Source: a virus. From it: DNA of 64,000 nucleotides. The stretch's first letter is position 1; each line of letters starts with the position of its first letter. Shown piece by piece: positions 28,687 through 60,104 of this stretch. A program made the position numbers and the translations under genes. The notes beneath the pieces were generated by a model. It was not told where the DNA came from. It saw nothing but the letters and a program-made list of their open reading frames with translations, and searched no databases. The stretch lies in IMG/VR virus record IMGVR_UViG_3300033388_007160, positions 22,020 through 86,019 of that record; one strand, given 5' to 3'.

Positions 28687-28993
28687 CTATTGATGGCAAG
28701 TTCGTCTTCAGTGCCAACAACGTTCATTGTTTGCTTCTTGGTGGCTATTGTTACAACTATCCTAATAGGACTTGGATGTGCCAAGCAGGTGCCTTGCGAG
28801 GTCAAAGCAGGCCAGGCGGGTTGTTTCCGGCACAGTCAAGCTGGAGCCGCCGGTAATAGTTGAAACGGACGAAGTTTTCTATGAATATCCCGACAGAGAA
28901 TATTAACCGAGTAATTATCTACGTCGGGCCTAGCAAACCCGAATGTAGCCCAGACGAGTCTCAGCTTAAAGGGGAAAACACCACAAAGGGGGC

Positions 28994-29326
28994 GTGCCGA
29001 GAATGAATTGTCTATCCAGTAAATTGAAGCAAGTATTGGATGCTATGCAGCAGATGGAACAGGATTTTGGGCATATAGAGACCGGTATAAACAGTCTCCG
29101 CGAGAGCACGACATTTATCAAGCGTCGATTAAATGAATTGGTTTGGGCTCTGTGGGAAGGGACAGCAGAAGCGCGGTTCATGGATGATTTGATAGATGCT
29201 CTGCATGTCTGTGCTAGCGTAAGCAAAACAATCGAATCTCTGGCCAAGTCAATTAGAGGTTCCAGCGACAAAAGTTTAGAAATCATTGAAGAAGTGTGTG
29301 AAATCCTGAAGGAGAATGCCAGATGA
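28994..29326 (+). CDS. Coiled-coil hypothetical protein
   Basis: AAAGGGGG RBS; heptad pattern. Confidence 0.5.
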   Translation: MPRMNCLSSKLKQVLDAMQQMEQDFGHIETGINSLRESTTFIKRRLNELVWALWEGTAEARFMDDLIDALHVCASVSKTIESLAKSIRGSSDKSLEIIEEVCEILKENAR

Positions 29327-29859
29327 TTCGTGTCACCGAGAACCTTTACTGGGGTGCCATAGCGCCGCGCGAGGAAGGGTTGGCCATCGAGCCCAAGCAA
29401 CTGGACCTGCTTATTTACTGCGGCGACTGTGAGGAATTTGCCCAATACGCTTCCGAGGAGCTTCGGGATGAGATAGACCGTTGGAATGTGCCGGTGATAT
29501 GCCTTGGCTGGCATGATAATCCCGGAATGCCACCAACACGCAAGTCGATAACTTTCCTCGTTGATACCGTGAACATGATGCTACGTGCTGGCCGGTCGGT
29601 ATGTATCGCCTGTGCCTTGGGCATTAACCGTTCTTTCTTTGCTTTGATGTGCTGTCTGGCCCGCACTGAACCTGAGTTTGAGGCCAGAATATCTGCCCTG
29701 AGCCGTTTGCGAGGTATTAATTACGAAGATTGGTTTCACCGCTATGCCATCTGGCGCACAGTTTGGGAGACGAGCAAAGACAAAGCGAGAGATATCTCTG
29801 ATGTGAAAAAGGGCCGGATGCAGGCCCCTCAAAGCTCACAAAAGGAGAGATTAAAATGA
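29323..29859 (+). CDS. Dual-specificity/Tyr phosphatase family protein
   Basis: CX5R motif CALGINRS; N-terminal VTENLYWG. Confidence 0.75.
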   Translation: MIRVTENLYWGAIAPREEGLAIEPKQLDLLIYCGDCEEFAQYASEELRDEIDRWNVPVICLGWHDNPGMPPTRKSITFLVDTVNMMLRAGRSVCIACALGINRSFFALMCCLARTEPEFEARISALSRLRGINYEDWFHRYAIWRTVWETSKDKARDISDVKKGRMQAPQSSQKERLK

Positions 29860-34367: not shown

Positions 34368-34955
34368 ATGAAGCTAAGTGATTGGGCCAAGCAGCAAGGC
34401 ATCAGTTATCGCACGGCATGGAGATGGTTTAGGCAAGGACGCTTGCCGTGTAGGGCTGAGCAGATGCCTTCGGGGACCATATTGGTCTATCCCGATGAGG
34501 AAACACAAACAGATGAAGCTGTAGTGATTTATGCTCGTGTTTCGTCCAGCAACCAGCGTGGAGACTTGCAGCGGCAGGTTGAACGGCTTGTGACTTACGC
34601 CAATGCTCGCGGCTGGAGAATTGCGGATATTGTCACAGAGATAGGTTCGGGCCTCAACGGTCGCCGGAAGAAGCTGTTGAAGCTGTTGGCCGACCCCAAT
34701 GTTCGCCATATCCTCGTAGAACACCGAGACCGCTTGGCCCGTTTCGGTGTTGAGTTTATAGAGGCAGCGTTGTCTGCCAGTGGCCGCAAGCTTACGGTGG
34801 TAGATGAAACAGAATTCAAAGACGACTTATGGCAGGACTTTGTGGATTTGGTTACCAGCATGGCGGTCCGCATATATGGCCGTCGAGGCGCACGAAACCG
34901 TGCGCAACGTGCTTTAGAGGCCCTGAGGCACGGCGATGACAATCTTAAGGAGTAG
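34368..34955 (+). CDS. tnpA: IS607 serine-recombinase transposase
   Basis: MKLSDWAKQQGISYRTAWRW HTH; YARVSS; EIGSGLN; EHRDRLARFG. Confidence 0.95.
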   Translation: MKLSDWAKQQGISYRTAWRWFRQGRLPCRAEQMPSGTILVYPDEETQTDEAVVIYARVSSSNQRGDLQRQVERLVTYANARGWRIADIVTEIGSGLNGRRKKLLKLLADPNVRHILVEHRDRLARFGVEFIEAALSASGRKLTVVDETEFKDDLWQDFVDLVTSMAVRIYGRRGARNRAQRALEALRHGDDNLKE

Positions 34956-36030
34956 CAAGCTTAGCTTCAAAGAAGCAACGGAAGCCAAGCTGGCTATCCT
35001 GCAGAAGATAGCTGAAGATTACCGTCGTGCCGTTAACTGGTTCATAGACTGGTATTGGCAACACGGCCTCCGCCGCTTTCCTGAAACCGAAGTAGTCAAT
35101 GCCTGTCCTGTGGATTGGTTCACTCATCGCATGAAGAAGGTGGCTGCACAGCAGGCCCTTGGTATAGTCCGCGTTGCCTGCAAGCGAGGCCGGAAAACAA
35201 AGCCTGAATATAAGCAGCTTAAGATACAAGCTCAATGCACCATTGCGCGGTTGCGGCAACCCAAAGAGGCCGAGAGCTTTGATTACTGGCTTGAGCTGCG
35301 GTGCATAGGCAACAAATTACGCTTGGACTTGCCCCTGAAAGCCAACAAACATTTCAACCGCTTCGTAGCTGAAGGCTGGAAACAGCATAGTGGACTGCTT
35401 ATTGATGTAAAGCGACGCACTGTGACGGTAGTATTCGAGAAGGATGAGAAACCTGCAGATGATACGTCACACCCCGTTGCTGTAGACATCGGGGCAAGTT
35501 CATGTCTATTTGCCTGTGCCGACTTTGCCCACGCTGGCTGTCTTGGTCTGCAGATTGGCGACCTTCTACAAAAGGTTGCGCGGAAACAACATGGCTCCAA
35601 GCGCCAGAAGAAAGCTCGACGCCGGTTGAGGCATTACATTGATGAACAAGTCAAGAACCTGCTCAAAGCTTTTCAACCTAGCTGCGTCGTGGCCGAAAGA
35701 TTGCATAACGTGCTGCAGCGAACCAAACAAGACCGTAAGCTAAATAAAGCAGTTCGCTGCCTCCTCGGTGGTTGGTGCTACCGTTACGCGCTGGAGCGGT
35801 TGCGCATGACATGCGAAGTCAACCGTGTTGGCTTCCATGTCGTGCCGCCGCAGTATACCAGCCAGCGGTGCCCAGCCTGCGGCCACATCGAGGAGTCGAA
35901 CCGCCGAGGCAGGATGTTTCGCTGTCGGCAATGTGGGTATATTGACCATGCCGACTTAGTGGCCGCCAGAAACATCCTGTGGCGGTTCACTGAGGAGATT
36001 ACCGTCCCTCAGGCGGCGGAAGCCGGTTGA
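34936..36030 (+). CDS. tnpB: TnpB RNA-guided endonuclease
   Basis: RuvC D (AVDIG), E (VAERL) and D (HADLVAARNI); CPAC/CRQC zinc finger. Confidence 0.9.
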   Translation: MTILRSSKLSFKEATEAKLAILQKIAEDYRRAVNWFIDWYWQHGLRRFPETEVVNACPVDWFTHRMKKVAAQQALGIVRVACKRGRKTKPEYKQLKIQAQCTIARLRQPKEAESFDYWLELRCIGNKLRLDLPLKANKHFNRFVAEGWKQHSGLLIDVKRRTVTVVFEKDEKPADDTSHPVAVDIGASSCLFACADFAHAGCLGLQIGDLLQKVARKQHGSKRQKKARRRLRHYIDEQVKNLLKAFQPSCVVAERLHNVLQRTKQDRKLNKAVRCLLGGWCYRYALERLRMTCEVNRVGFHVVPPQYTSQRCPACGHIEESNRRGRMFRCRQCGYIDHADLVAARNILWRFTEEITVPQAAEAG

Positions 36031-46274: not shown

Positions 46275-46356
46275 TGGTGGACGCGCCCGGGAATCGAACC
46301 CGGGTACCAAGCGCTGCACACCGGCCTTAGCGCTTGGTCGAACCTATTCTGCGCCC
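46275..46356 (-). ncRNA. Mini tmRNA-like RNA, tRNA-like domain only (copy 1)
   Basis: GGGCGC acceptor stem with G3.U70; GGTTCGAC D-region; 9-bp helix; TTCGATT T-loop; ACCA end; no anticodon arm. Confidence 0.75.
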
Positions 46357-46367
46357 ATACTGCATCA

Positions 46368-46955
46368 TTATATCCACTGGTAGGCGTCTTCAATAGCGCC
46401 CACAGCCTCGGCTACCAGCAGCCGATAAGGCCTAGGCAAGTCACTAAACAACTGCAGCCACCTGCCCAGCATGTTCATCTCCCTCAGCCCGGTTGACAGG
46501 TCTAGGGCCTCGGCTATCTCAGTGATGTCAAAACAAGCATCAATCGGTTCGCCGGTCACTTCTGCCCAGACCAGGGCCATGAAGACGGTTGCCGGGCCGC
46601 CGCTGCTACCGTAGTTACAGCTTGCCCATTCCACGCTCCTGACGATGTTGGCGGCCTTGGTCAGTTCCTTCCCACTGGGCCATAACTGTGCCGCTAGCTT
46701 AATCACCTGCAACAGGTCAATATCGCCTTCTTCTGCGTGAAGTGCGAAAGTCTCTGTATCAGTTTCCACGAATTCCACATCATCTTTGTCAATGCCGAAG
46801 CGCTTGAGGGCTTCAGCTATGGCGTATTTAGCACACGGCGCGATAAGCGCCCCAGCCCCCAGCACCCACATTGCAGTAGCCTTCTCCCTCAGTCCCTTAG
46901 GATACTTTTCGAAATTATCCGGCGTTGGCAAGCTCACGGTTACCATCGCTTTCAC
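46368..46955 (-). CDS. Hypothetical protein
   Basis: 195-aa ORF; start uncertain. Confidence 0.6.
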   Translation of the reverse strand: MKAMVTVSLPTPDNFEKYPKGLREKATAMWVLGAGALIAPCAKYAIAEALKRFGIDKDDVEFVETDTETFALHAEEGDIDLLQVIKLAAQLWPSGKELTKAANIVRSVEWASCNYGSSGGPATVFMALVWAEVTGEPIDACFDITEIAEALDLSTGLREMNMLGRWLQLFSDLPRPYRLLVAEAVGAIEDAYQWI

Positions 46956-48734: not shown

Positions 48735-49019
48735 TTACGATGTTCGCCCTCCCTCTAGCGCTTTGGCTACCGCCCCCAACCACCTCGCCACCGCATCGGG
48801 CCTCTTCCACAAGGCAAACATCGCCCACGCTACCCAATCAGCCACATAAGCCTTGTCCTTGCCGTACGACTCAAGCGCTTTACCCAGTTCGTAGATAGCC
48901 GTTGCGGGATTTTCGGGGCGCAGTACACACGCCGCTGCCGCAATCGCTACACCAATCTCTGTATCTCTGTCTCCATCCAAGCTTTCCGGGCGAAATTCGC
49001 CGAGGAAGCTTCCCAGCAT
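48735..49019 (-). CDS. Hypothetical early protein
   Basis: GGAAGGGGG RBS before the ATG at 49019. Confidence 0.55.
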   Translation of the reverse strand: MLGSFLGEFRPESLDGDRDTEIGVAIAAAACVLRPENPATAIYELGKALESYGKDKAYVADWVAWAMFALWKRPDAVARWLGAVAKALEGGRTS

Positions 49020-49114
49020 TGCGCTACCCCCTTCCGTCTTCGGCGCTCCTGCCCCACCTTGGCGATGGGGCGGGATCGCCGGGCCGCCGCGAAGGCGGCC
49101 TTGGGCGATGAGCA

Positions 49115-49342
49115 TTAGGCTGTGGCAGCCCAAAGGTTCAAGGCGCTCAGTAGCTGCTCAAATACTTTCACCACCTTGCCTCGACCTGCTGGGAGCCGCA
49201 ACACATACTCTTCTTTTTCGGCGTCATAGTCGAGTTCGTAACCTGCTGCTTCTACTGCTCGGTCGAGGATATAGATATACGGCAGAAGAAATTCCTCCCA
49301 GTAGGTCACGTTGCCTTGCTCTACACGTAGACGCGCTTTCAT
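49115..49342 (-). CDS. First gene of the leftward operon, hypothetical
   Basis: GGGAAGGGGG RBS; promoter at 49381-49409. Confidence 0.65.
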   Translation of the reverse strand: MKARLRVEQGNVTYWEEFLLPYIYILDRAVEAAGYELDYDAEKEEYVLRLPAGRGKVVKVFEQLLSALNLWAATA

Positions 49343-49380
49343 GCTCGTTCCCCCTTCCCTGTCTCGCGCTTTCCACTCTC

Positions 49381-49409
49381 ATTATACCCACTCGCGCCGG
49401 GTGCTAAAC
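49381..49409 (-). promoter_or_regulatory. Repeated phage promoter motif, leftward operon
   Basis: GTTTAG-N14-GGGTATAAT. Confidence 0.7.
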
Positions 49410-49417
49410 ATGTTTTG

Positions 49418-49928
49418 TGTAACAACCTTGTTACATCCGGCGCCCGGCGCCAGTAATGCGCCTGCGCTCACCCAAAGCGCCGCTGCGGCGCAGCGCCTTT
49501 AGCGGCTTGTCACAATTGCCAAGCATTCGCAACAGCCAAGACTGTGTTACTGCAAATCGTGGGCAATAACGCAGGCCAAGCAGCTACTGCTGATTTGGGC
49601 CAAGCCCGGCCCAAGGCCTGAAGCTTAGCCTTGGACCTTCAGGCCTGGCCTTCGGCCTAGCCTTTATCGGCCTCCATTATATATATGTGCCAGTCGGGCC
49701 GGATTTAAACCTGCTGGGCCAGAAAATTTTCGGCTTTTCGGGCCGGGGCCTTGGGCCTGGCTTGAGGCGGGCCAGTCGGGCTGAGGCAGCCGGGCCGAGC
49801 CATATTGGGCTTGGCTGGCCAGGCCGAGCCAGCAAAGGCCGGGGCAATCGGGCTTGGGCCGGATCGGGCCGGGGCCTTCGGGCCGGATTAGGCCGAAGGC
49901 CGGGGCCGGATGTAACAACATGTTTACA
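49418..49928. repeat. Inverted repeats/operator-like palindromes enclosing a GGCC-saturated block
   Basis: TTGTTACATCCGGC (49428-41) is the reverse complement of 49905-18; palindrome TGTAACAAccTTGTTACA at 49418-35. Confidence 0.75.
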
Positions 49929-49964
49929 TCAGCATGTTTCGGGCCGGTTTAGGGTAGACTGGTC

Positions 49965-49994
49965 TTGACAGCCATTAGCGTGATATGCTATACT
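49965..49994 (+). promoter_or_regulatory. sigma70-type promoter
   Basis: TTGACA-N18-TATACT with extended TG. Confidence 0.7.
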
Positions 49995-50047
49995 GGGCCT
50001 TGACAATGGGCCTTGAGGCCCCCGAAGCTAAGTCGGAGGTGAGTCTA

Positions 50048-50266
50048 ATGTCTGAGAAACTCTACGAACTGGCCTGCCAACAGGCCGGGCCGGAGTTTGC
50101 GGAGTTAGTGCAGGATATTGCAATTGCAGTCCTTGACGAAATGGCCGCGGACGAACATGACCCAGAATGGCAGAAGGCCTTCAGCATTAACCGGGCCTTG
50201 AACTGGCTGAAGGCCAAGCGGGCCGTTGAGAAACTGGCTGCAGCATGGAAACAGGCTGAATCCTAA
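50048..50266 (+). CDS. Hypothetical protein
   Basis: GGAGGTGAG RBS. Confidence 0.6.
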   Translation: MSEKLYELACQQAGPEFAELVQDIAIAVLDEMAADEHDPEWQKAFSINRALNWLKAKRAVEKLAAAWKQAES

Positions 50267-50281
50267 GGGGAGGTGAGTCCA

Positions 50282-50908
50282 ATGTCAGTAACCTTTGACG
50301 TATGGCCTTGGGCCGACAAGCTAATGCTTCAATTGGGCTTGGCCAGCCAGGCCAAACTGGTCAGGCTGGCCAGGTGGGCCAGCCAGGCCTTGAAAGCCAA
50401 GCCCAAGTATGAGTATCGGGCCTATAAAGCTGATATCAAGGCCGAAGGCCCGGCCTTCAAGCTTGTGTGGATGGAAAAGCCTTCCGGGCCTTGCTGGCTT
50501 ATCTGGGCCAAGCCCAAGCAAGCTTGGGCCTGGCCTATGTGGACTGAAGGCTGCATCATCGAGCGTCAAGGCCGCTTGTGGCTGCAGGCCCGCGGGCTTG
50601 GCATGATTGAGATTGATAGCATAAGCCAAGCTATTCATATCCTTCTGGCCCGGCCCGGCCTTGGGCCTGCTGAGGCCCCGGCCTACAAGGCCGAGCCAGA
50701 TAACGGCAGGCCGGATCGGGCCATTGTCACAACCCTTGAAGGCAGCCAGATAACCTACTACTACAAGCCCGAACCGGGCTACTGGGCCAGGCAGACTTTG
50801 CAAGACAAGGCCCTGGCCCGAGCCTGGCCCAAGGTAGTTTCATCATATCGGGCTTTGATGAGGCTTGCCAGGGAAAAGCAGGCCCAAGTCAAGCGGGCCT
50901 TTGACTAA
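50282..50908 (+). CDS. Hypothetical protein with GGCC-rich coding sequence
   Basis: GGAGGTGAG RBS; followed by a terminator. Confidence 0.6.
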   Translation: MSVTFDVWPWADKLMLQLGLASQAKLVRLARWASQALKAKPKYEYRAYKADIKAEGPAFKLVWMEKPSGPCWLIWAKPKQAWAWPMWTEGCIIERQGRLWLQARGLGMIEIDSISQAIHILLARPGLGPAEAPAYKAEPDNGRPDRAIVTTLEGSQITYYYKPEPGYWARQTLQDKALARAWPKVVSSYRALMRLAREKQAQVKRAFD

Positions 50909-50920
50909 CAAACCCTCTTC

Positions 50921-50960
50921 GGGCCGGGCCAGCAGCATATCGGCCCGGCCCTTCTTTTTT
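50921..50960 (+). terminator. Intrinsic terminator
   Basis: GGGCCGGGCC/GGCCCGGCCC stem plus TTCTTTTTT. Confidence 0.75.
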
Positions 50961-51054
50961 GCCTGCCGGGCTTATCGAGAACCGTGAGCAAATGAGAATG
51001 AATAGCAAAGGAGAGGGAAGGGGAGTTGAGAGAGGTTTGCAGCAGCCAAAGAAC

Positions 51055-51233
51055 CCCCTCCCAACACCCATAAAGTTTGACATATGTCGTCCCCTCCCAA
51101 CACCCGTGAAGCCCGACATATGTCATCCTCCCCCAACATCCACGAAATCCGATATATGTCACCTCCCTCCCCAATGCTCACAAAAGCTTGGGCGTATGTC
51201 GCCTTAGCACTCACGAAGTCTGATATATGTTAT
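51055..51233. repeat. Degenerate ~36-bp tandem repeats, about 5 copies, iteron-like
   Basis: GA(C/T)ATATGTC-like core at 51079, 51115, 51151, 51191 and 51222. Confidence 0.85.
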
Positions 51234-51314
51234 GCCTGTGTTTGCTGGCTGTAGGGGATGGTGGGGAGTTTTGGTTCAACCGGGCTTCGCCGGGGGAGAA
51301 GGGAAGAGGTTGGG

Positions 51315-51365
51315 CCCTAGCTACCTATAGGATAAAACTACGTTTTATCCTATAGGTAGCTAGGG
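51315..51365. repeat. Perfect 24-bp inverted repeat with 3-nt centre
   Basis: CCCTAGCTACCTATAGGATAAAAC-TAC-GTTTTATCCTATAGGTAGCTAGGG. Confidence 0.95.
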
Positions 51366-51510
51366 TTGCCTCGCATGTTACTTTGTTGATAATTGCCGTC
51401 GGCGAATGGTATAAAGCAGGGCGTTTGTGGTAGGATGCGGCAGGATGTGGTAGGTTGTGTGGGTGGGAAGGGGCCGAAGTTGATACTTCCCTATGGGGAG
51501 AAGGTTATAG

Positions 51511-51539
51511 GTTTGAAAGGGCCTGGGCCGGGGCATACT
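51511..51539 (+). promoter_or_regulatory. Repeated phage promoter motif
   Basis: GTTTGA-N14-GGGCATACT. Confidence 0.5.
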
Positions 51540-51566
51540 TAAAACAAAAAAGGAGCGGGATAGGCG

Positions 51567-51872
51567 ATGGCCGGTGAGAAACCCCTGTGGCATATGGAGC
51601 TTATCGTTACGACGAAGGAGGAAGTTAGGCTGGATGGGCGGGCCTGCCCGGCGGCTGGCATCCTCGCTCTGTGGTTTGAACAGGGCAAGGACTGTGTGCT
51701 TTATATCCCCGTGAAGATGCTGGAGGACATGTTCGGGGCCTGCCCGGATGTGCTGGATGTGGCCATCTCCGGCAAGGCTCATCTGGATGGCACATATACC
51801 TTCGTTACGGTGCAGGCGGACGAAGGAGGGGAACTGGCGGTTTACGCTCAGGGCCCGATAGCTCGGTCATAA
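51567..51872 (+). CDS. Hypothetical protein
   Basis: AAGGAG RBS. Confidence 0.6.
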   Translation: MAGEKPLWHMELIVTTKEEVRLDGRACPAAGILALWFEQGKDCVLYIPVKMLEDMFGACPDVLDVAISGKAHLDGTYTFVTVQADEGGELAVYAQGPIARS

Positions 51873-51903
51873 CGATCTGCTTTTTTGAATCTAACTAGAG
51901 GCC

Positions 51904-52470
51904 CTACGAAGGTTTGCCATTCATCACAGTCTTCCTCCATGACCGCCAAGCTTTCTGTTTGGGACCGAAGGCCTTCACCGTATGCCACTGTTTGGTGCGG
52001 CCTGCACGCCAGGCCAGGAAGATGGGCGTGCCGGTTGCGTTAACCGCTTTCTGGATGGCCTTCTCCCAGGCCTGATAGCGATGGTCGTCCTTCAGATGGG
52101 CCAGCACAAGTTCTATGACCGCGAGGAACAAAGGCTGATTAGAGAGAGGCAGCGGCCCGATGTATATGGCACCGCCGTTGCGCAGGCGGCCTTCGGCTAT
52201 CATCCGGCCCAAACGGCGGTTGAATTGGTCTTTGATGGAACATAGGGCCACGCCAACCTGACCGGATGAAGAGTCATATGCTATCGTCATACCGCCATGA
52301 GGCAGAGGCTGCTTCCCATCCTGCAGCAACCTGTAGTGGAATATCTTCGCCTCTTCGTGGTCTTCAGCCCAGTCGTGATACGTTACCACAAGAGGTTCAG
52401 GCTGGCCGGGGTCAAGGACATCTGCTTGATACTTGAACTCTATGCCGGGGTTCCAAGCTCCCCTTCCCAT
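51904..52470 (-). CDS. Conserved phage hypothetical protein
   Basis: GVALCSIKDQFNRRLGRMIAEGRL motif; AAAGGAGG RBS. Confidence 0.7.
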   Translation of the reverse strand: MGRGAWNPGIEFKYQADVLDPGQPEPLVVTYHDWAEDHEEAKIFHYRLLQDGKQPLPHGGMTIAYDSSSGQVGVALCSIKDQFNRRLGRMIAEGRLRNGGAIYIGPLPLSNQPLFLAVIELVLAHLKDDHRYQAWEKAIQKAVNATGTPIFLAWRAGRTKQWHTVKAFGPKQKAWRSWRKTVMNGKPS

Positions 52471-52506
52471 GCTTATCCTCCTTTCGCATGATAGGCTATC
52501 ACAGTT

Positions 52507-52536
52507 AGTATACCATGCAGGATAGGCCGGTTAAAC
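52507..52536 (-). promoter_or_regulatory. Repeated phage promoter motif
   Basis: GTTTAA-N15-TGGTATACT. Confidence 0.6.
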
Positions 52537-52537
52537 A

Positions 52538-52612
52538 TGGTGGCCCCGACGGGATTCGAACCCGTGTTACCGCCTTGAAAGAGCGGCGTCCTAGCCACTA
52601 GACGACAGGGCC
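52538..52612 (-). tRNA. tRNA-Glu (UUC)
   Basis: Full cloverleaf; anticodon loop CTTTCAA; GGTTCGAATCC; encoded CCA. Confidence 0.95.
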
Positions 52613-52621
52613 ACCATCGGC

Positions 52622-54124
52622 TTATTCGAGGACAGGCCCTTCTGGCCCTTCCCAGTTTTCGATCACATCAACCAACTTATCCCAAACGAGGATGACCTTG
52701 AAGATGTTATCATTGAAGCCGCCGATGTCAAGAATGCGTGGATTCTGCGGCAGGTCGCTGGTGCCGTATGGGGCCAAGCAGACATTGACTACCCGAAGCT
52801 CCGGATTAAGGCCCAGAAGCTTTTTGATAGCCTCCCCCGCGTAGCCCCAGCTACCTGGCAACCAGGACTGCTCATCCGTAAGTATCACCACATAGTCAAG
52901 CTGGTTAGCATAGGCTGCTACCTTCTCAATGGCCTCGGCCAAATTGGTGCCACCGCCATCAACGTAAATCTGCTTGAAGATGTCATATGTTCGACTGGAG
53001 CGGCTGACTTTGCATTGTTGGGCCCCAGTGCCATAGCTGATTATCACGCCATTCTGAGCCTTCTTGAACGCTGCAGCAGCAAACAATCGGGCCACATCAA
53101 CCCGGCTGACCATTGACCTTGCACTCAAGAAGCCCAACATGCTGCCGCTCGTATCCACAAGCACACCTACACGGCCCAGTGAAGGCACATTGTCTGTTGC
53201 TATTTCTATGGCTTCAATCAGGGCGTCTTCGGCTTCCTGCTTGGCAGCCAAACTGATGTTCTCGTCTTCCAACTGCTGCACGCTTGCCAAGGCAGCCAGG
53301 AAACGGAACGGCATAATCTTGGGATGTCGGGCTGCTGCCAGAACTTTTTCTCTGTCAATTGGCACATTATGTTTAAGCAAGTTGCGCAGGTTGCGAATAT
53401 AAGCCATGGGCGGCATGATTTCAGCAGCCCTCATCCAAGTCTCATGGTTGCTGCCATAAGCGCTGATAAGAGATTCCCAAGTGGTGGCCTTGCCTTCCGC
53501 GTGGGCCTTAATCTCCTCAGGCGTATCTTCACCAACCTTGCCGGTTACAATCCACCTGAATGCGGCGGCCTGGGCTGCATCCTTGGGCTTCGGGTGAATA
53601 ACGTTCAGCACATCAACAAGGCTCCATTCGCGAGTTTTGCCACGATATTTGATAATCTCATACGGCGTCAAAGCTTGTAGCCTCTTGGCAATTGCTCTTC
53701 GCAGGGCCATAGGGATGGGGCCGCCATATACCTCTTTATATATAGCCAGTACTTCAGCGGGTTCATCGGCCCGTGCCATGATAACCGGCCCCCACTTGGC
53801 AACCCATGGCTTAGGTGCACATTCGTGGACTGGGTGCCCTGCCATCACAGCCAGCAAGAACTGCGGGGCCGTCCTCATGCCAAGTTCATGACGCAGCCAT
53901 GCAGCCAGCTTCAGCACGAATTCGGGGTCTTTGGTCCCAACTTCCAGCGCCAGATTCTTGATGGCCTCAGTGACTTCATGTTTGGTTGCGTAGAAGGTAT
54001 CTTCAAAGAAGTGTGTGGCACACCGCAGTGCCAGCTCCAGCTTGGGTGGATACTTGTAGGCCGGAGCCCCTTCATAGTTGACTGTCTTGCCTGCAGCCCG
54101 CTTAGGCTTGTTGAACTTAGCCAT
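52622..54124 (-). CDS. Ro60/Rsr TROVE-vWA RNA-binding protein
   Basis: NYEGAPAY; FVLKLAAWLRHELGMR; RADE; DVLNVIHPKP; TWES.IS; MAYIRNLRN; PFRF; vWA DTSGSM, GGTN and LTDEQ. Confidence 0.93.
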   Translation of the reverse strand: MAKFNKPKRAAGKTVNYEGAPAYKYPPKLELALRCATHFFEDTFYATKHEVTEAIKNLALEVGTKDPEFVLKLAAWLRHELGMRTAPQFLLAVMAGHPVHECAPKPWVAKWGPVIMARADEPAEVLAIYKEVYGGPIPMALRRAIAKRLQALTPYEIIKYRGKTREWSLVDVLNVIHPKPKDAAQAAAFRWIVTGKVGEDTPEEIKAHAEGKATTWESLISAYGSNHETWMRAAEIMPPMAYIRNLRNLLKHNVPIDREKVLAAARHPKIMPFRFLAALASVQQLEDENISLAAKQEAEDALIEAIEIATDNVPSLGRVGVLVDTSGSMLGFLSARSMVSRVDVARLFAAAAFKKAQNGVIISYGTGAQQCKVSRSSRTYDIFKQIYVDGGGTNLAEAIEKVAAYANQLDYVVILTDEQSWLPGSWGYAGEAIKKLLGLNPELRVVNVCLAPYGTSDLPQNPRILDIGGFNDNIFKVILVWDKLVDVIENWEGPEGPVLE

Positions 54125-54143
54125 CGAAATTCGTCCTCCTTTC

Positions 54144-54182
54144 AAAATAAAAAGCGCCGTCCCGCACGATGCGAGACGACGC
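54144..54182 (-). terminator. Intrinsic terminator/attenuator immediately upstream of the Ro60 RBS
   Basis: GCGUCGUCUCGCA-UCG-UGCGGGACGGCGC, 13 bp with 2 G.U, plus UUUUUAUUUU. Confidence 0.85.
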
Positions 54183-54219
54183 CCCGTCTATGGGCTGAGA
54201 GCCCGGAGGTTGAATGCTA

Positions 54220-54293
54220 TTGGCACGAGAATAACGACAACGGCACGGTTCAGCTCCAAAGGCTGAAGTAACCGTTGTCTCGCATCGTGCCAA
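54220..54293 (-). ncRNA. Y-RNA-like element, proximal
   Basis: Ends pair (GGCACGA/UCGUGCC); internal loop UGCGA; helix GACAACGG/CCGUUGUC; GGUUACUUC motif shared with the distal copy; adjacent to Ro60. Confidence 0.75.
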
Positions 54294-54318
54294 ACTTCTT
54301 TTGAATTTTCAAGGTTGA

Positions 54319-54416
54319 GCGCGTAGAGTATATTGGTTGCGGTACTTTTTCCAGCCGCCTCAATGGCGGAACCGGATTTCGAGTCCGGAAGTAACCGCAA
54401 CCTCGCAGCTACGCGC
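54319..54416 (-). ncRNA. Y-RNA-like element, distal, YrlA-like
   Basis: GCGCGUAG/CUACGCGC; UGCGA; GGUUGCGG/CCGCAACC; T-arm-like CCGGA-CUCGAAA-UCCGG; 5' end 7 nt from a -10 box. Confidence 0.8.
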
Positions 54417-54422
54417 AGGTTT

Positions 54423-54451
54423 AGTATACCACAATGCAGGCAATTCTAAAC
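54423..54451 (-). promoter_or_regulatory. Promoter of the Y RNA-Ro60-tRNA operon
   Basis: GTTTAG-N14-TGGTATACT. Confidence 0.75.
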
Positions 54452-54465
54452 ACTGGTGAAGCAAA

Positions 54466-55086
54466 GTGCTGGCTATAATCAGTTTGGCTCTGTCTTTAGC
54501 CCAAGCGCCCAACTTGGCACTCATCTACCATACCGACAGGCTTTTCAGTTACCGCCTCGTGGCCGACCGGCCCCTGCCCAAAGGCAGCCTGCTTATCCTT
54601 ATTACTAAGAGTCCCCTGCAGGCCACCGGCCCCGCTTTGAGCTGGAAGAAAACGATTTACTTCGGCAGCATTGCTGCTTGGCGAAAGACAGACGAACGAA
54701 TCAGACGTTATTACCAGTCATTCGACGTAACGACGTGCTATCCGGCCAGGCTGGGCAAGATTTTCTGGGTTCTTGCCACACCTTCTGGTTGTTGGTGGGG
54801 CGTTTGCTGGGGGCCATGCAGTCCGATGCGGTATAATAGTTTTGGGCACGCGAGTGGGCTCGGCGGCGGGGAGAGCCGATGTGCGCCCCGCTGCACGCGG
54901 GTTCGAATCCCGCCGTGTCCACCAGCGTTCAAGTTTGTGAACAGGCCCAGCAGGGTAAACTCTCCACGAAATGAAGAGGAAGGTTCAGCGAATCATCAAT
55001 GCCCTCAACCGCTGGTGGGAACTGCGCCGGTTCCCCGAGAGGCTGAAGTATCAACGTTTTCTGGAGCGCAATCTCTTCAATCTTGA
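54466..55086 (+). CDS. Possible secreted protein; true 3' end probably before ~54830
   Basis: Signal-peptide-like N-terminus; C-terminal part overlaps an RNA gene and the next ORF. Confidence 0.3.
   Translation: MLAIISLALSLAQAPNLALIYHTDRLFSYRLVADRPLPKGSLLILITKSPLQATGPALSWKKTIYFGSIAAWRKTDERIRRYYQSFDVTTCYPARLGKIFWVLATPSGCWWGVCWGPCSPMRYNSFGHASGLGGGESRCAPRCTRVRIPPCPPAFKFVNRPSRVNSPRNEEEGSANHQCPQPLVGTAPVPREAEVSTFSGAQSLQS
54844..54924 (+). ncRNA. Mini tmRNA-like RNA, tRNA-like domain only (copy 2)
   Basis: GGGCACG/CGTGTCC acceptor with G3.U70; no D-stem; 8-bp helix; GCGGG-TTCGAAT-CCCGC; ACCA; TATAAT at 54832-37. Confidence 0.8.
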
Positions 55087-55306
55087 TGAAAACGGCGACA
55101 TAAACACGATACTCGGCCACTGGATACATATCCGCCGAAGGTCGGATGGTCGCTTCAATCAGCGTGATATACAGGACGCCTTGCGGAACCTCGACCTGCT
55201 GATTGAAACGGCCAGCTTCATGAAAGAAGTCATTCAAAATCTTGAACAAGAAGCGGAGAGTGAAGGGCATGGAGTCGAGACGGAGCGAACTGTGCGTGAA
55301 CGTTGA
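54971..55306 (+). CDS. Hypothetical protein
   Basis: 111-aa ORF in operon. Confidence 0.5.
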   Translation: MKRKVQRIINALNRWWELRRFPERLKYQRFLERNLFNLDENGDINTILGHWIHIRRRSDGRFNQRDIQDALRNLDLLIETASFMKEVIQNLEQEAESEGHGVETERTVRER

Positions 55307-55541
55307 AGTTGACCCGCTGAGCCATCTTTTTGAGTATCCCGAAGTCGTGGAATATTTCAAGCAGGGCAAACTCAGCATAGCCCCGCAGAAGGCTGCATTA
55401 CAGATAGGAGCTGTTTCGCTTATCTCATATGGCGACGATTCGGCTGATGCGTTGCGACGCTTGGTTTATATGTGCAAGGCTATCAGCGTGGAATACAGTT
55501 TGTTGCGCCGTTTCTTCCTTACAGGAGGAGATAAAGAATGA
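55269..55541 (+). CDS. Hypothetical protein
   Basis: GGAG RBS; ATGA overlap with the kinase gene. Confidence 0.5.
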   Translation: MESRRSELCVNVEVDPLSHLFEYPEVVEYFKQGKLSIAPQKAALQIGAVSLISYGDDSADALRRLVYMCKAISVEYSLLRRFFLTGGDKE

Positions 55542-56434
55542 CAGAAGTGCCCATTCTTGTTGTAGGAGACAGTTTCCTTGACATTTTGCTTGACGTTGGG
55601 GTCACGACTGAGGCTGAAGATGCACCCACCTACAAGGCCAACCGGACGTATGCGGCTTGGGGCGGGGCGGCCAACGTTGCTTGGTGCCTTGAGTGGATGA
55701 ACCTGCCGGTTTCTTCTGCTCTATGCTGGCCTTACCGCGATTCGAGTATAGCCAAGTGGGGCAACGGCCAGATTATGCTACCAGCACAACCTTATCCCTG
55801 TGCCACTACGGCTCCACTGCAGGTTCGCATGAGGTTGCGTGATAACAATGGTCGGCTTTGTCGGATAGATTTTCCGGCCCCAGAAGAACCATACTATTTC
55901 AGCGGATGGAAAGATGATTTGCAGCGAATGCTTAACGACAAGGAGTGGAAAGTGATTGTCATTGCTGACCACGGATATCTGCCTGAGCTTATCAACGAGG
56001 TTGTTGGCCAGATTAGCCTGAATTGCGAGACCATCATCATCTACGATTGCAACTGCCGGGTGCCACCACCCCAAAGGTTGCTGAAGCACGAAAACTGTAT
56101 CATCAAGGCCAATCAGTCTGAGATTGAGCGCTGGCCCTACCTAAAGCATACTGCCTTGACTCTCATTGTGACACGAGAAACTGAGCCGACGCAGCTCTTT
56201 GTGAATGGTTGCCTGTATGGCACTTATGAAGTGCCCGCCCAGATAGCTCCTGCTTCATGGGAATATTCCGGGGCCGGTGATGCTTTTGTTGCCCGCCTTG
56301 CAGCTCAGTGTGCTTGGGTTGCTCCTGGAGACCTTACTCCTCATTTCTTGGAAGAAGCTGTTCGCAATGCCCAACTGTTTGTGCTTGAATACATGAGCCG
56401 CTGGCATGAACGATACAAAGAGGTGAGTGGATGA
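55538..56434 (+). CDS. PfkB-family sugar kinase, HldA/RfaE-I-like
   Basis: ILVVGDSFLD, GGAANVA, KANQSE and SGAGDAFVA motifs. Confidence 0.8.
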   Translation: MTEVPILVVGDSFLDILLDVGVTTEAEDAPTYKANRTYAAWGGAANVAWCLEWMNLPVSSALCWPYRDSSIAKWGNGQIMLPAQPYPCATTAPLQVRMRLRDNNGRLCRIDFPAPEEPYYFSGWKDDLQRMLNDKEWKVIVIADHGYLPELINEVVGQISLNCETIIIYDCNCRVPPPQRLLKHENCIIKANQSEIERWPYLKHTALTLIVTRETEPTQLFVNGCLYGTYEVPAQIAPASWEYSGAGDAFVARLAAQCAWVAPGDLTPHFLEEAVRNAQLFVLEYMSRWHERYKEVSG

Positions 56435-57780
56435 TGAATTATGCCCGCTTATGCGAAAATGCAGATATTTGGGGTTATGATGCGGTATTTTCTGTTGTTG
56501 CTTTCTTGCAGGCCATCAATAGCCCTCGTCTAAGCGACCTGCCGGAATTTGCTCGATGGATTGACGAAGCGGCCAAGCAATACGACATCAATCAGCGCAT
56601 TCTGCTGGCGATTGCTCAGAAAGAGCAAAGTTTCCTGACTCGCCCCAGAGGCGGCAGAGGATGGCGACGCGCGCTACAGTATACGATGGGATATGGAGCA
56701 ACCGACAGAGGTGATATCCCCAAGTATGCTGGTTGCAAGACTCAGGTTTTTGCAGCGGCTGAAGGCTTGAGGAGGTATTGGGACAGTGGCCGTGTGCAGA
56801 GGATGGTCGGCAAGCCGCTGGCTGAAACCCTGCCGTGGACGAAAAACACTCCCACTGGTAAAATCATACCAGAGAATGAAGCTACTGCTGCCCTTTACTT
56901 GTATACACCGCATTTGTCCGGTGCTCGTGATTTTGTTAGAGTATGGCGATGGTTAAAAGGAGTTGAGGCCAGGATGGCTGCTGAAGACAGACTTTATCCA
57001 GAAGGCTATCCCAAGCCATTGCAGAGATGTGGAAGAGTTGACCCCGGCCATGTGAGATACTGGTTTGGTAATCCCTGCCAGACAAACCATTTTGTGAGCC
57101 ACAAGGTTCCGATACTCGGTCGTGTATATGTCCATCGCCGCATTGCCGAGGCATTTGAACAGGTTCTCAAAGAGATTGAAGAAGCGGGGCTGGCCGAACT
57201 AATTGACCTTTCAGATTATGGTGGCACTTACTGCTGTCGGCGCGTGCGGGGAGGCCGCGCATATTCGCCCCATGCGTGGGGTATTGCCATTGATTTGAAT
57301 GTGCATCATCTGCAGGGACCAAACGGCGAGTATCGGGCCGGTCGAACCAACTGGCGCTGCAGGCCAAGCGAGATACCAGACAGCCTGAAACGACTTGCTC
57401 CCTTCTTCCGGCGCTGGGGGTTTTCGTGGGGCGGCGACTGGAAGTCCTTCAAAGACCCAATGCATTTCGAGGCCACGGCCCTCACGGTGAAACTGTTGGA
57501 GGGTGGCGAGTTGCCGCAGAAGTTTATTGAGGTTTGCCGTGCCGGTCAGCAGCCCCAACCTGGCTATGTGCCCGGAGAAGTTAAAGTTGTTTTGTTGCCT
57601 GACAATAAAGTGATCCCGTGCAATGCTTATTTCGATGGCGAGAAGACCAAGTGCAACCTGCGTGAACTGGCCGAAGGTCTGGGGTATGTGGTTGCCGACC
57701 ATATCCCCGACCAGAGGAAGGTATATCTTGTGCCCAGAGAAGCCAAGGCACATCTTATACCCAAGGAGGCTGATGCATGA
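56431..57780 (+). CDS. Endolysin: lysozyme-like N-terminus, M15 peptidase, C-terminal binding domain
   Basis: ILLAIAQKEQS...LYLYTPH; SPHAWGIAID and DPMHFE. Confidence 0.85.
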   Translation: MMNYARLCENADIWGYDAVFSVVAFLQAINSPRLSDLPEFARWIDEAAKQYDINQRILLAIAQKEQSFLTRPRGGRGWRRALQYTMGYGATDRGDIPKYAGCKTQVFAAAEGLRRYWDSGRVQRMVGKPLAETLPWTKNTPTGKIIPENEATAALYLYTPHLSGARDFVRVWRWLKGVEARMAAEDRLYPEGYPKPLQRCGRVDPGHVRYWFGNPCQTNHFVSHKVPILGRVYVHRRIAEAFEQVLKEIEEAGLAELIDLSDYGGTYCCRRVRGGRAYSPHAWGIAIDLNVHHLQGPNGEYRAGRTNWRCRPSEIPDSLKRLAPFFRRWGFSWGGDWKSFKDPMHFEATALTVKLLEGGELPQKFIEVCRAGQQPQPGYVPGEVKVVLLPDNKVIPCNAYFDGEKTKCNLRELAEGLGYVVADHIPDQRKVYLVPREAKAHLIPKEADA

Positions 57781-58025
57781 TGGATATACAGAAGGATTTC
57801 GAGGATGTTCTGCGGATTGCCCAATTGGAACGGGCAGTCCAGCAGGCCATTTCAGTAGTCCAGAGATTGGACTCGTTACGTAAAGACCTGCCCACAATGG
57901 TAGGCCAGCTTCGTGGTGGTGCTGAAGCAGCTCGTGAACTGGGCAAGCCAGAACTGGCCGAAAAGTTTGAGCGCATAGCGGCAGTCGTTGAGGAGAGGGC
58001 CGGTGACTTCCTTGGCACGCGGTGA
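57777..58025 (+). CDS. Hypothetical protein
   Basis: AAGGAGG RBS. Confidence 0.6.
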   Translation: MMDIQKDFEDVLRIAQLERAVQQAISVVQRLDSLRKDLPTMVGQLRGGAEAARELGKPELAEKFERIAAVVEERAGDFLGTR

Positions 58026-58031
58026 GCACAT

Positions 58032-58952
58032 ATGAAGCTTGCCGTATGGCAGATTGATGCAACTCCTCGACCGTCAGCCGTGCTCGAAGATTATGTCAAA
58101 TTCTCTGTCGAGCACGGTGCAGACATAATTGTTTTTCCTGAGCTCTTAGGTTGCTGGCTGAGTGCAACACCGGTAGGGCTGCCCCGATGGCTGCTCAAGC
58201 TGGAAGCTGCACTGGTCAGGGCCTACGCGGAAACCGTAGACAGCCCCATACTGGCCGCATTTGGCATGAGCAAGCTTGGGGCAGCTAAAGCGTCAGACGT
58301 TATACTGGGCAAGTTACTGAGGCTGCTGGGCGTAGCTGATTGGGCCAAGTGTTGGATGGCTCGCACTTGCGAGAGTTTGTTCCTCGAATTCTTTACGCGA
58401 CTTGCACGTGAATACTCCTGCTGGCTGGTGCCGGGTTCTACCATTCGCGTTGTGGGGAAGCAGTTGCGGAACACAACCTACCTGATTTCGCCGTCGGGTG
58501 ATGTGGTGCTTACGGCTGACAAGATTAAGCCCCTTGCTATGGAGCAGGCACTTGGTATCCGACCGGGGCGGTCAAGCGAGGTCTATACCATAAGCGAAGA
58601 GGACCGGACGGTTAGCATAGCTCTGGCCCTCTGCAACGATGTAACGCCCCCAACGCCACTGAAGGTCCCTGCAGGAACCTGGTTATTGGTGCCCTCTGGT
58701 GGTTGGGCCCCGTCACCTAGCTGGAAGTGGACTTGGGATCGGGAGATGGTGCACATTAAGACAGCTCAAAGCCTTGAGTGCCGTATTGCTCGCAGCTACT
58801 TCTGCAGTGGCAGCATGTTCGAGGGGCTTTACGCTGCTGGTCGGGCGTCCGTCGTGGGGCCTTCAGACGTTATAGCACTTGCACCATACGGCCAGGTCGG
58901 TATGCTGTTGTGTACGGATTCGGAGTGCCAGTGGCGTGCATTTGAGGCGTGA
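58032..58952 (+). CDS. Nitrilase/carbon-nitrogen hydrolase family protein
   Basis: GADIIVFPE, RNTTYL, DK and LCND triad motifs. Confidence 0.8.
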   Translation: MKLAVWQIDATPRPSAVLEDYVKFSVEHGADIIVFPELLGCWLSATPVGLPRWLLKLEAALVRAYAETVDSPILAAFGMSKLGAAKASDVILGKLLRLLGVADWAKCWMARTCESLFLEFFTRLAREYSCWLVPGSTIRVVGKQLRNTTYLISPSGDVVLTADKIKPLAMEQALGIRPGRSSEVYTISEEDRTVSIALALCNDVTPPTPLKVPAGTWLLVPSGGWAPSPSWKWTWDREMVHIKTAQSLECRIARSYFCSGSMFEGLYAAGRASVVGPSDVIALAPYGQVGMLLCTDSECQWRAFEA

Positions 58953-58958
58953 GCGGCC

Positions 58959-60104
58959 ATGACCATTCAATGGGGCAAGTCAAGCGGTGCAGACATAAAC
59001 CTGAGCTTTAGCGGCAATTGCGCCCTGGATGGTTGTCGCATAGTGGGCTCGGGGGCCGATGATGACATCGCCCTGGATTGGGCCTGGCCGGCGACAGATG
59101 TCCATACAATGTTGCCGCTGGATGGCACCCTCGAAAACTGGGGCACTGGCGCCGACTGGGTCGTAACAAATGGAGTTGAATGGGTGCAGCCCGGCTGGAT
59201 GGGCCCGCAGGCCGCACGCACTCCCAACTTTGGCGGATGGAAGCAAATGGCACGCGCTGACGATTATTGCACTCCGCTGACAGGGATAACTCGTGAACTG
59301 TGGCTGAGGCGAGAAGAAGACCGGACGAATGACCGCCGCTTCCGGTTCCGTCAACCATTCACGTGGGATGTCTACTCCTATTATCCGACTTACGGCTGGT
59401 TTTGTGAGGCCTTTTTCCCGAATGGGGCCTTCAGGGTTGAACATATAGAGCGGCTGATTGATATCGACTTGCAATGGCACCACTTCTGCCTCGAATGGGA
59501 CGCTGAGGCCGACAGGGCGACACTGTATATAGATGGCATGGTCGCAGGCACTTTGGACAACACGGGGTTAGAACCTGCATCGCACCGCACGGAAATTTGG
59601 ACCAGCAGCGCGGGTGGAGCGCTTCAGTTTGACACCCTTGTTGTTGCAGAAAGGCCGCTACATGGCGGAGAATTCACACCCCACCGCTATGAGGCTGGTT
59701 CCGTTACGCTACAGTATCAGCCGGACGATTTGATGCGGCTGACGTCTATCGATTGGTCGGGGACCTTTGGTCCAAGCTACGGGCACGTCACGAAGGTTGA
59801 GGTATACAGTAGACCGAGTTGGCATGTGGTGGCAAGCGATTCTAATGGAGTACAACCACCGATTACGGGGCTTAATTATGTAATCGGCGGTCCAAATGTT
59901 GTCCGTTTCACACTGGCACCCAAGCAGGATACACTCCAGTCAGAGACACCGTTGCTCGACTGGGTGCTGGTCAGTCTTGAACCACTTACTAGGCCTGCCC
60001 CGCAATCCTTGAACTTTTCGGCTCCCCGAAGTAACATTTCTGTGACGACTGAGAGGCGTGAAATCCGAGTCAAGACCAGCCGGAGAGAGCTGGGCGTTAA
60101 GTGA
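58959..60104 (+). CDS. LamG-like domain virion protein
   Basis: QWHHFCLEW...ATLYIDG. Confidence 0.65.
   Translation: MTIQWGKSSGADINLSFSGNCALDGCRIVGSGADDDIALDWAWPATDVHTMLPLDGTLENWGTGADWVVTNGVEWVQPGWMGPQAARTPNFGGWKQMARADDYCTPLTGITRELWLRREEDRTNDRRFRFRQPFTWDVYSYYPTYGWFCEAFFPNGAFRVEHIERLIDIDLQWHHFCLEWDAEADRATLYIDGMVAGTLDNTGLEPASHRTEIWTSSAGGALQFDTLVVAERPLHGGEFTPHRYEAGSVTLQYQPDDLMRLTSIDWSGTFGPSYGHVTKVEVYSRPSWHVVASDSNGVQPPITGLNYVIGGPNVVRFTLAPKQDTLQSETPLLDWVLVSLEPLTRPAPQSLNFSAPRSNISVTTERREIRVKTSRRELGVK

What the first reader, a model, noticed from the sequence alone, without database searches (positions are those of the whole stretch)
46275..46356. Second, diverged mini tmRNA with compensatory changes and a conserved loop
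Seen on the minus strand: GGGCGCA-GAATAGGTTCGA-CCAAGCGCT-AAGGCCGGTGTGC-AGCGCTTGG-TAC-CCGGG-TTCGATT-CCCGG-GCGCGTCC-ACCA. The GGTTCGAC motif is typical of tmRNA 5' ends. Compared with the 54844 copy, all three stems differ yet still pair, G3.U70 is kept, and the apical loop keeps GCCG(A/G)TGTGC. Inference: covarying stems with a conserved loop point to a selected RNA family whose loop is a recognition element, not decayed tRNA. This copy has one A.C mismatch and an extra G in the acceptor/T stack, which could be a read error.
Basis: partly seen in the sequence, partly recalled or inferred. Interest (0 to 1): 0.82.

Follow-up and report, generated by a model that had tools for sequence, protein, structure and literature searches.

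The report
Second tag-less mini-tmRNA gene in phage
This 86-kb phage carries a second real gene for an 82-base RNA that copies only the alanine-accepting, tRNA-like end of the bacterial ribosome-rescue RNA (tmRNA). The type is already known from mycobacteriophage DS6A, but this copy belongs to a small subgroup that keeps an unusual conserved tip on its one remaining hairpin.

Summary
Window 46356..46275 (minus strand) is an 82-nt RNA gene with these parts:
- a GGGCGCA/CGCGUCC acceptor stem with G3.U70, discriminator A and an encoded CCA;
- the tmRNA-type GGUUCGAC D-analog and a canonical T arm;
- one 9-bp hairpin in place of the whole mRNA-like domain.

It is a paralogue of the 81-nt copy at 54844-54924, and the genome has exactly these two. 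Rfam and ARAGORN miss it. A covariance model built only from five foreign homologues scores it at 63.9 bits (copy A 70.7, the phage tRNA-Glu 24).

Homologues with quite different stems but the same hairpin tip occur in four unrelated metagenome or MAG contigs. The tip is an A-rich bulge, a 2-bp mini-helix and the hexaloop CGAUGU. One of those contigs also carries two copies.

The general kind, a TLD-only tmRNA, is known from phage DS6A and was found many times before in this scan on other DNA. It most likely takes alanine and binds host SmpB, so that it blocks or short-circuits trans-translation; this is inferred, not shown. What reads the tip is unknown. Part of the tip is inherited tmRNA P2 architecture. 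A link to the phage's Ro60 gene was tested and not supported. Verdict: new member of a known kind, of modest interest.

The parts
46275..46356 (-). Copy B: 82-nt TLD-only tmRNA-like RNA gene (the finding)
   Evidence: Sequence; fold; leave-out model R2 gives 63.9 bits; family model R1 gives 84.9 bits.
46367..46372 (-). TATAAT -10 box, 10 nt upstream of G1 of copy B; it overlaps the stop codon of the upstream ORF 46368-46955
   Evidence: Read. -10-like boxes lie 6-10 nt upstream of most family members read. The consensus scanner found no full -35/-10 pair.
46350..46356 (-). Acceptor 5' strand GGGCGCA (G3 of the G3.U70 pair at 46354; A7 at 46350 faces C)
46338..46349 (-). D-analog region with the tmRNA-type GGUUCGA(C) motif
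   Evidence: compare the Rfam tmRNA consensus GGaUUCGAC.
46307..46337 (-). P2 hairpin: 9-bp stem (46329-46337 with 46307-46315) and a 13-nt apex
46316..46328 (-). Apex: AAG bulge, mini-helix GC/GC, hexaloop CGGUGU (46318-46323)
   Evidence: The same plan is seen in 7 of 7 subgroup members, with a compensatory UC/GA in L017.
46287..46303 (-). T arm: CCGGG, loop UUCGAUU, CCCGG
46275..46286 (-). Extra G (46286), acceptor 3' strand CGCGUCC, discriminator A and encoded CCA
54844..54924 (+). Copy A: 81-nt paralogue with TATAAT at 54832-54837
   Evidence: Rfam tmRNA 51.1 bits with 303 model positions deleted; R2 gives 70.7 bits; identical in the related contig L025.

Best explanation
Copy B is a functional, separately transcribed gene for a tag-less mini-tmRNA. 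It consists of the tRNA-like domain (TLD) of tmRNA plus a short P2 hairpin, with no resume codon, tag reading frame or pseudoknots. It is one of two diverged paralogues in this phage.

Inferred mechanism:
1. Host RNase P and 3' exonucleases trim the transcript.
2. Host AlaRS charges it with alanine through G3.U70 and A73.
3. The TLD binds host SmpB (and EF-Tu).
4. Because there is no template to resume on, the RNA titrates SmpB and/or occupies stalled ribosomes unproductively. Host trans-translation and the tagging of phage proteins for degradation are thereby reduced during infection.

The conserved apex (A-rich bulge, 2-bp helix, CGAUGU loop) is under selection and probably contacts a host component of this pathway. 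The partner is unknown.

Shown: gene identity, structure, covariation, family membership and copy number. Inferred: charging, SmpB binding, inhibition and the role of the apex.
For: Anatomy and detection:
- The anatomy can be read directly.
- Copy A passes Rfam tmRNA with the whole middle deleted.
- Copy B scores 63.9 bits with model R2, built from five foreign sequences only. That is above other TLD-only RNAs (50-61 bits) and far above the tRNA-Glu (24) and the ends of real tmRNAs (33).
- The genome has exactly two copies.

Structure across seven subgroup sequences:
- G3.U70 is present in 7 of 7.
- All acceptor, P2 and T pairs are kept, with 2-4 pair types per variable position.
- The P2 sequence is different in all seven.
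- The Infernal alignment gives 83.9% paired against 63.5% in shuffles, and covariation 0.50 against 0.14.

Each RNA has its own -10 box.

Precedent:
- The DS6A TLD-only tmRNA is described, and a similar molecule strongly inhibits tmRNA in E. coli, 'perhaps by titrating SmpB' (PMC4131195, citing Mao 2009; PMC11915505).
- DS6A's RNA scores 51.7 bits with R2 and has the same P2 / A-rich bulge / mini-hairpin plan.

The phage encodes no SmpB of its own, so any partner is the host's.
Against: - No expression, charging or binding data exist for this RNA.
- Copy B has an A7.C mismatch and one extra nucleotide in the acceptor/T stack. That makes 13 layers, or 6+6 bp, which might weaken EF-Tu or ribosome use.
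- The junction 3' of P2 reads UAC (CAC in copy A) where most tmRNAs have GAC.
- Inhibition does not explain why two copies are kept, nor why a specific hexaloop is conserved.
- The host is unknown.
Confidence: 0.6

Rival explanations
1. Tag-free rescue helper. Ala-charged mini-tmRNA with SmpB enters stalled ribosomes and accepts the nascent chain. The peptidyl-RNA is then released and hydrolysed. Ribosomes are freed without marking phage proteins for proteolysis, so the effect is positive rather than inhibitory.
For: It has the same anatomy as the best explanation. CDS-less tmRNAs exist in organelles, where they are thought to help with incomplete mRNAs (PMC11915505). Two copies and their own promoters suggest a high dose is wanted.
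Against: The only experimental precedent cited for such a molecule reports inhibition, not rescue (PMC4131195). No release factor, hydrolase or SmpB gene was seen near the RNAs.
Confidence: 0.15
2. Partner RNA of the phage Ro60 protein. The two tRNA-like RNAs are Y-RNA-like ligands (a permuted YrlA plan), and the conserved CCGAUG apex is the Ro60-binding motif.
For: A Ro60 gene (TROVE + vWA) lies at 52622-54145, 0.7 kb from copy A and 6.2 kb from copy B. Bacterial Y RNAs mimic tRNA and carry a GNCGAAN0-1G Ro60 motif (PMC4201824), and the apex reads GCCGAUG.
Against: - No Ro60 homologue is present in the loci of the other subgroup members.
- Other viral records with TLD-only RNAs lack TROVE.
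- Six phage Ro60 loci have no such RNA within 6 kb.
- Phage Ro60 genes commonly sit beside tRNA genes anyway.
- The Ro60 leader 54164-54420(-) holds two stem-bulge RNAs of its own with a shared UGCGAG motif and a T-arm-like hairpin.
- Copy B has G where the motif needs A.
Confidence: 0.05
3. Copy B is a decaying duplicate of copy A with no function of its own.
For: It has an A7.C mismatch and a one-base insertion. It falls below the Rfam threshold. No orthologue of copy B itself could be retrieved.
Against: All 9 P2 pairs are intact although 8 differ from copy A. The T stem and six acceptor pairs are intact. The apex and a perfect TATAAT are kept. The insertion is absorbed by a sixth T-stem pair. 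An unrelated contig, L021, also keeps two diverged copies.
Confidence: 0.07
4. Another use of a tRNA-like, Ala-accepting RNA: a decoy for a host nuclease or defence system that attacks tmRNA or tRNA, an RNase P processing signal, or a donor of alanine to a non-ribosomal transferase. In each case the apex would be the specificity element.
For: The apex is conserved across phages of very different base composition with no shared neighbouring protein, which points to a universal host partner. The position differs between loci: replication module, tRNA array, vWA-PP2C cassette.
Against: Nothing specific supports it. The D-analog and the 3' UCCACCA are those of tmRNA rather than a generic tRNA.
Confidence: 0.1

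Closest known systems
TLD-only (CDS-less) tmRNA of mycobacteriophage DS6A (tmRNA Website tmID 11587 / Phage__Mycobacterium.9; PMC4131195, PMC11915505; JN698994 about 28479-28560)
   Same: About 80 nt. Acceptor with G3.U70. tmRNA-type D-analog and T arm. One P2 hairpin with an A-rich 5' bulge and a small GC-rich distal hairpin. No tag frame. Sits in the replication module. Invisible to ARAGORN.
   Different: DS6A's apex is CCG-CACG-CGG, not GC-CGAUGU-GC, and its 3' end is ACUA rather than an encoded ACCA. Only one copy has been reported in DS6A (PMC4131195; its whole genome was not scanned here), whereas this phage has two. Copy B has an irregular acceptor/T junction.
Full-length tmRNA (Rfam RF00023), including phage-encoded ones (cluster C mycobacteriophages, Melnitz; PMC4131195, PMC9004378)
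   Same: The tRNA-like domain, the alanine identity elements, the start of the P2 helix, and possibly the P2-closing GC|CGA block.
   Different: It lacks the resume codon, tag ORF, stop codon and all four pseudoknots: 303 of 374 model positions are absent. It therefore cannot tag proteins.
Bacterial and phage Y RNAs of the YrlA type bound by Ro60 (PMC4201824)
   Same: A small tRNA-mimicking RNA in a genome that encodes Ro60, with a short motif resembling GNCGAA.
   Different: YrlA has its ends in the Ro60-binding stem and a closed 'acceptor' hairpin. Here the ends form a true acceptor stem with CCA, and there is no association with Ro60 in other genomes.

Membership tests
TLD-only (CDS-less) tmRNA, DS6A type | 7-bp acceptor stem with G3.U70, discriminator A, 3' CCA | tested here: met
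   GGGCGCA/CGCGUCC+ACCA. Six pairs plus A7.C. G3.U70 is present.
TLD-only (CDS-less) tmRNA, DS6A type | tmRNA-type D-analog (GGNUUCGAC) and canonical T arm | tested here: met
   GGUUCGAC at 46343-46336; CCGGG-UUCGAUU-CCCGG.
TLD-only (CDS-less) tmRNA, DS6A type | P2 helix closed by a short loop; no tag frame or pseudoknots | tested here: met
   9-bp stem and 13-nt apex. Reading from the GCC in the apex meets no stop codon within the RNA (read from the sequences; no translation was run).
TLD-only (CDS-less) tmRNA, DS6A type | Recognised by a model not trained on it | tested here: met
   R2 gives 63.9 bits, E about 6e-15. The same model finds DS6A at 51.7 bits.
TLD-only (CDS-less) tmRNA, DS6A type | Alanylation, SmpB binding, inhibition of trans-translation | not testable with these tools
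   Known only for a similar molecule in E. coli (PMC4131195, citing Mao 2009).
Full-length tmRNA (RF00023) | Rfam gathering score (47 bits) | tested here: not met
   Copy B has no hit at gathering and only a 15-bit truncated hit. Copy A scores 51.1 bits.
Full-length tmRNA (RF00023) | mRNA-like domain with resume codon, tag ORF and stop; pseudoknots | tested here: not met
   Only 31 nt lie between the D-analog and the T arm. ARAGORN finds no tmRNA.
tRNA | Anticodon arm (5 bp + 7-nt loop) and D arm; detection by ARAGORN or Rfam tRNA | tested here: not met
   9-bp stem with a 13-nt loop. Not reported by ARAGORN or by RF00005.
Y RNA / YrlA (Ro60 ligand) | 5' and 3' ends form the Ro60-binding stem carrying GNCGAAN0-1G; encoded within about 4 kb of Ro60 on the same strand; co-occurs with Ro60 | tested here: not met
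   The ends form an acceptor stem. The apex is GCCGGUG in copy B. Copy B lies 6.2 kb from Ro60. No co-occurrence elsewhere.

The most novel reading that the evidence does not exclude
The GC-CGAUGU-GC apex defines a functionally distinct subclass of phage mini-tmRNAs. A specific, widely conserved host factor (a ribosomal site, SmpB's tail, RNase R or another) would read the loop. Phages would keep two diverged copies because the two do different jobs, or act at different times of infection.
Probability: 0.3. Interest if true: 0.6.

Novelty: new member of a known kind. Interest (0 to 1): 0.36.

Why it matters
Phage interference with ribosome rescue is little studied. TLD-only tmRNAs are missed by ARAGORN, and often by Rfam, yet they keep turning up in phages. 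This case adds two points that can be tested at the bench. First, two unrelated phage contigs each keep two diverged copies. Second, a subgroup conserves an apical hexaloop while every stem has changed, which gives a handle (loop mutants, pull-downs) for finding what these RNAs touch in the cell.

Tried and rejected
- **Close relatives carrying copy B.** Searches in IMG/VR with the two flanking small proteins and with Ro60 found none.
The 20-kb ENA contig with a 96%-identical Ro60 (P0001) could therefore not be fetched.
- **Related contig L025/L026.** It is 89-95% identical and covers window 48871-59689 only.
- **Sequencing runs.** One DNA run with a small share was found and no RNA holder was listed. 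Laying it gave no cover of 45.8-48.9 kb, so neither the suspected read error nor expression could be examined.
- **Loop-plus-T-arm patterns in viral contigs.** They gave only tRNAs and one unresolved tmRNA-like 3' end (L038 = L018).
- **BLAST of the RNAs against isolated phages.** It matched only T arms. Three spot checks were not clear TLD-only genes.
- **Terminase relatives.** In 80 loci and 18 whole records there were no subgroup members. Three had single TLD-only RNAs with other apices.
- **Ro60 link.** Rejected; see the rival explanations.
- **Shared neighbouring protein among subgroup loci.** None found.
- **Apex as a resume-codon mimic.** The upstream U-A spacing is not conserved and there is no stop codon (sequence reading).
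- **Pairing of the apex with 16S rRNA around position 1400, or identity of CGAUGU with 23S 2501-2506.** Both rest on rRNA sequence recalled from memory. They are six- to seven-base matches expected by chance, and the majority A would mismatch.
- **Mao et al. 2009** is not held in the library.
- **Consensus scans.** No full sigma-70 promoter or intrinsic terminator was found at either RNA.

Full report
**What is there**

The window is part of a complete 86,019-bp virus record with 114-bp terminal repeats.

The 82-nt stretch has these parts:
- an acceptor stem GGGCGCA/CGCGUCC with G3.U70, discriminator A and an encoded CCA;
- a D-analog carrying GGUUCGAC, the motif of the Rfam tmRNA consensus;
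- a 9-bp helix with a 13-nt apex;
- a canonical T arm.

It folds at -39.7 kcal/mol, z = -3.2. A perfect TATAAT lies 10 nt upstream and overlaps the stop of the preceding ORF. The next gene has its own -10-like box and ribosome-binding site. So this is a separate small transcription unit inside the minus-strand replication block, which holds a sliding clamp and a helicase.

ARAGORN finds only a tRNA-Glu in the genome. Rfam finds the sister copy at 54844-54924 (tmRNA, 51.1 bits, 303 of 374 model positions deleted). It does not find this copy at gathering and gives it only 15 bits in permissive mode.

**Is it a member of a family, or chance?**

Pattern scans of public collections returned unrelated contigs with the same plan:
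- L021, which has two copies 3 kb apart;
- L023;
- L013/L017;
- L027, from an Acholeplasmataceae MAG;
- L025/L026, a 89-95% identical relative of this phage that carries copy A unchanged.

A covariance model built from the five foreign sequences alone (R2) scores as follows:

| Sequence | R2 bits |
|---|---|
| Copy A | 70.7 |
| Copy B | 63.9 |
| Other TLD-only RNAs | 31-61 |
| DS6A | 51.7 |
| Ends of genuine tmRNAs | about 33 |
| Phage tRNA-Glu | 24 |

The whole genome holds just the two copies.

In a hand-made structural alignment of seven subgroup sequences:
- G1-C, G2-C and G3.U are invariant.
- Acceptor pairs 4-7 and T-stem pairs 1-2 show 2-4 pair types each.
- P2 is fully paired in all seven, with seven different sequences.
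- The single non-pair is A7.C of copy B.

On the Infernal alignment of ten sequences, 83.9% of cells pair against 63.5% in shuffles. The covariation score is 0.50 against 0.14, with 0 of 500 shuffles as high. This holds even though P2 is partly out of register there.

**The apex**

All seven share the same order of parts: an A-rich 5' bulge, a 2-bp mini-helix and a hexaloop.
- The mini-helix is GC/GC in six sequences. It is UC/GA in L017, a compensatory change.
- The hexaloop is CGAUGU in five, CGGUGU in copy B and CAAAGC in the second L021 copy.

The search patterns demanded CCGRTGTG, so that core is ascertained. The bulge, the outer pair and the whole 5' half were not demanded.

Part of this plan is general. 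DS6A, L008 and L010 have an A-rich bulge followed by a CCG...CGG mini-hairpin. The Rfam tmRNA consensus has a GAa bulge after P2a, and a P2-closing CAUGC|CGAGG ... GCAUG. A deletion of the interior would leave GC-CGA...GC.

I therefore read the apex as a retained piece of tmRNA P2 whose loop has become fixed in this subgroup. What reads it is unknown:
- The subgroup loci share no neighbouring protein.
- The phage shows no excess of complementary sites.

**Known precedent**

A TLD-only tmRNA is on record for mycobacteriophage DS6A. Its describers note that a similar molecule strongly inhibits tmRNA in E. coli, perhaps by titrating SmpB (PMC4131195; PMC11915505).

Earlier reports of this scan describe the same kind in many other phage genomes. 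None mentions the conserved apex.

Three of five terminase relatives of this phage that I scanned whole with the Rfam tmRNA model carry one TLD-only RNA with a different apex. One of them, L124, has a leader much like copy B's.

**Mechanism**

- From established tRNA/tmRNA biology, G3.U70 with A73 should allow charging by AlaRS.
- The D-analog/T-loop elbow is the SmpB site.
- The phage has no SmpB gene.
- Without a resume codon, the RNA can only compete with host tmRNA or accept a peptide without continuing.

I favour interference with trans-translation. A tag-free rescue role is the main alternative. Both are inferences.

**Copy B's irregular junction**

The junction can be read in two ways:
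- 7 + 5 pairs with an A.C mismatch and a bulged G; or
- 6 + 6 pairs around an A/C mismatch.

It looks like a tolerated variant rather than an assembly error. I could not see reads.

**Ro60**

The window also encodes a Ro60 homologue, 52622-54145(-), with TROVE and vWA domains. A tRNA-Glu follows 10 nt after it.

Bacterial Y RNAs mimic tRNA (PMC4201824), and the apex resembles their GNCGAA motif, so I tested a link:
- No Ro60 is present in the other subgroup loci.
- No Ro60 is present in eight viral records with TLD-only RNAs.
- No such RNA lies within 6 kb of Ro60 in six other phages.
- Phage Ro60 genes often lie next to tRNA genes anyway.
- The Ro60 leader has its own two Y-like stem-bulge RNAs.

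The link is not supported.

**Verdict**

This is a real second mini-tmRNA gene: a new member of a known, under-annotated phage RNA kind. Two features are worth a bench test, namely paired diverged copies in two unrelated phage contigs and a subgroup-specific conserved hexaloop.

Noticed in passing
window 52538-54450 (minus strand): Ro60 homologue (TROVE + vWA, 507 aa), with a tRNA-Glu(UUC) 10 nt after its stop. Its leader holds two stem-bulge RNAs that share UGCGAG; the first has a T-arm-like hairpin CCGGA-CUCGAAA-UCCGG. It looks like a phage Ro60 / Y-RNA operon.
   Followed up: partly
L021 3790-8825: In this unrelated contig the two mini-tmRNA copies flank a vWA / PP2C phosphatase / vWA cassette, with a kinase-like gene upstream. 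The two vWA proteins belong to the same PHROG family (phrog_28389).
   Followed up: partly
L025 = L026 (QMZP01000018.1) and protein P0121: Contigs of a 95-98% identical relative of this phage are deposited as part of a 'Candidatus Aenigmatarchaeota' MAG. The phage has a bacterial-type beta clamp, an M15 cell-wall peptidase, TATAAT boxes and tmRNA mimics, so this is probably a binning error.
   Followed up: no
L025 3021-3180: The relative has two tandem tRNA-Glu genes (CUC and UUC) where the window has only the UUC one.
   Followed up: no
L124 1501-1575, L125 1501-1576, L126 1501-1571 (minus strands): These are unannotated TLD-only mini-tmRNAs in three IMG/VR phages related by terminase (Rfam tmRNA 50.6, 63.8 and 33.9 bits). 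ARAGORN misses all three. L126 lacks an encoded CCA.
   Followed up: partly
L023 895-1048: The mini-tmRNA is followed directly, with no spacer, by a tRNA-Thr gene, as in a tRNA array.
   Followed up: no
L027 185-3472; DS6A 28479-29831: In both, the mini-tmRNA lies next to a DNA polymerase III alpha-type gene. Copy B also sits in a replication module. This may reflect early or middle expression.
   Followed up: no
window 34936-36030: ORF with a Cas12f1-like/TnpB TNB domain, which points to an IS200/605-type element inside the phage.
   Followed up: no
window 50331-50408: A 78-nt near-perfect palindrome, hit on both strands by a microRNA hairpin model well below threshold. Its nature is unknown.
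   Followed up: no
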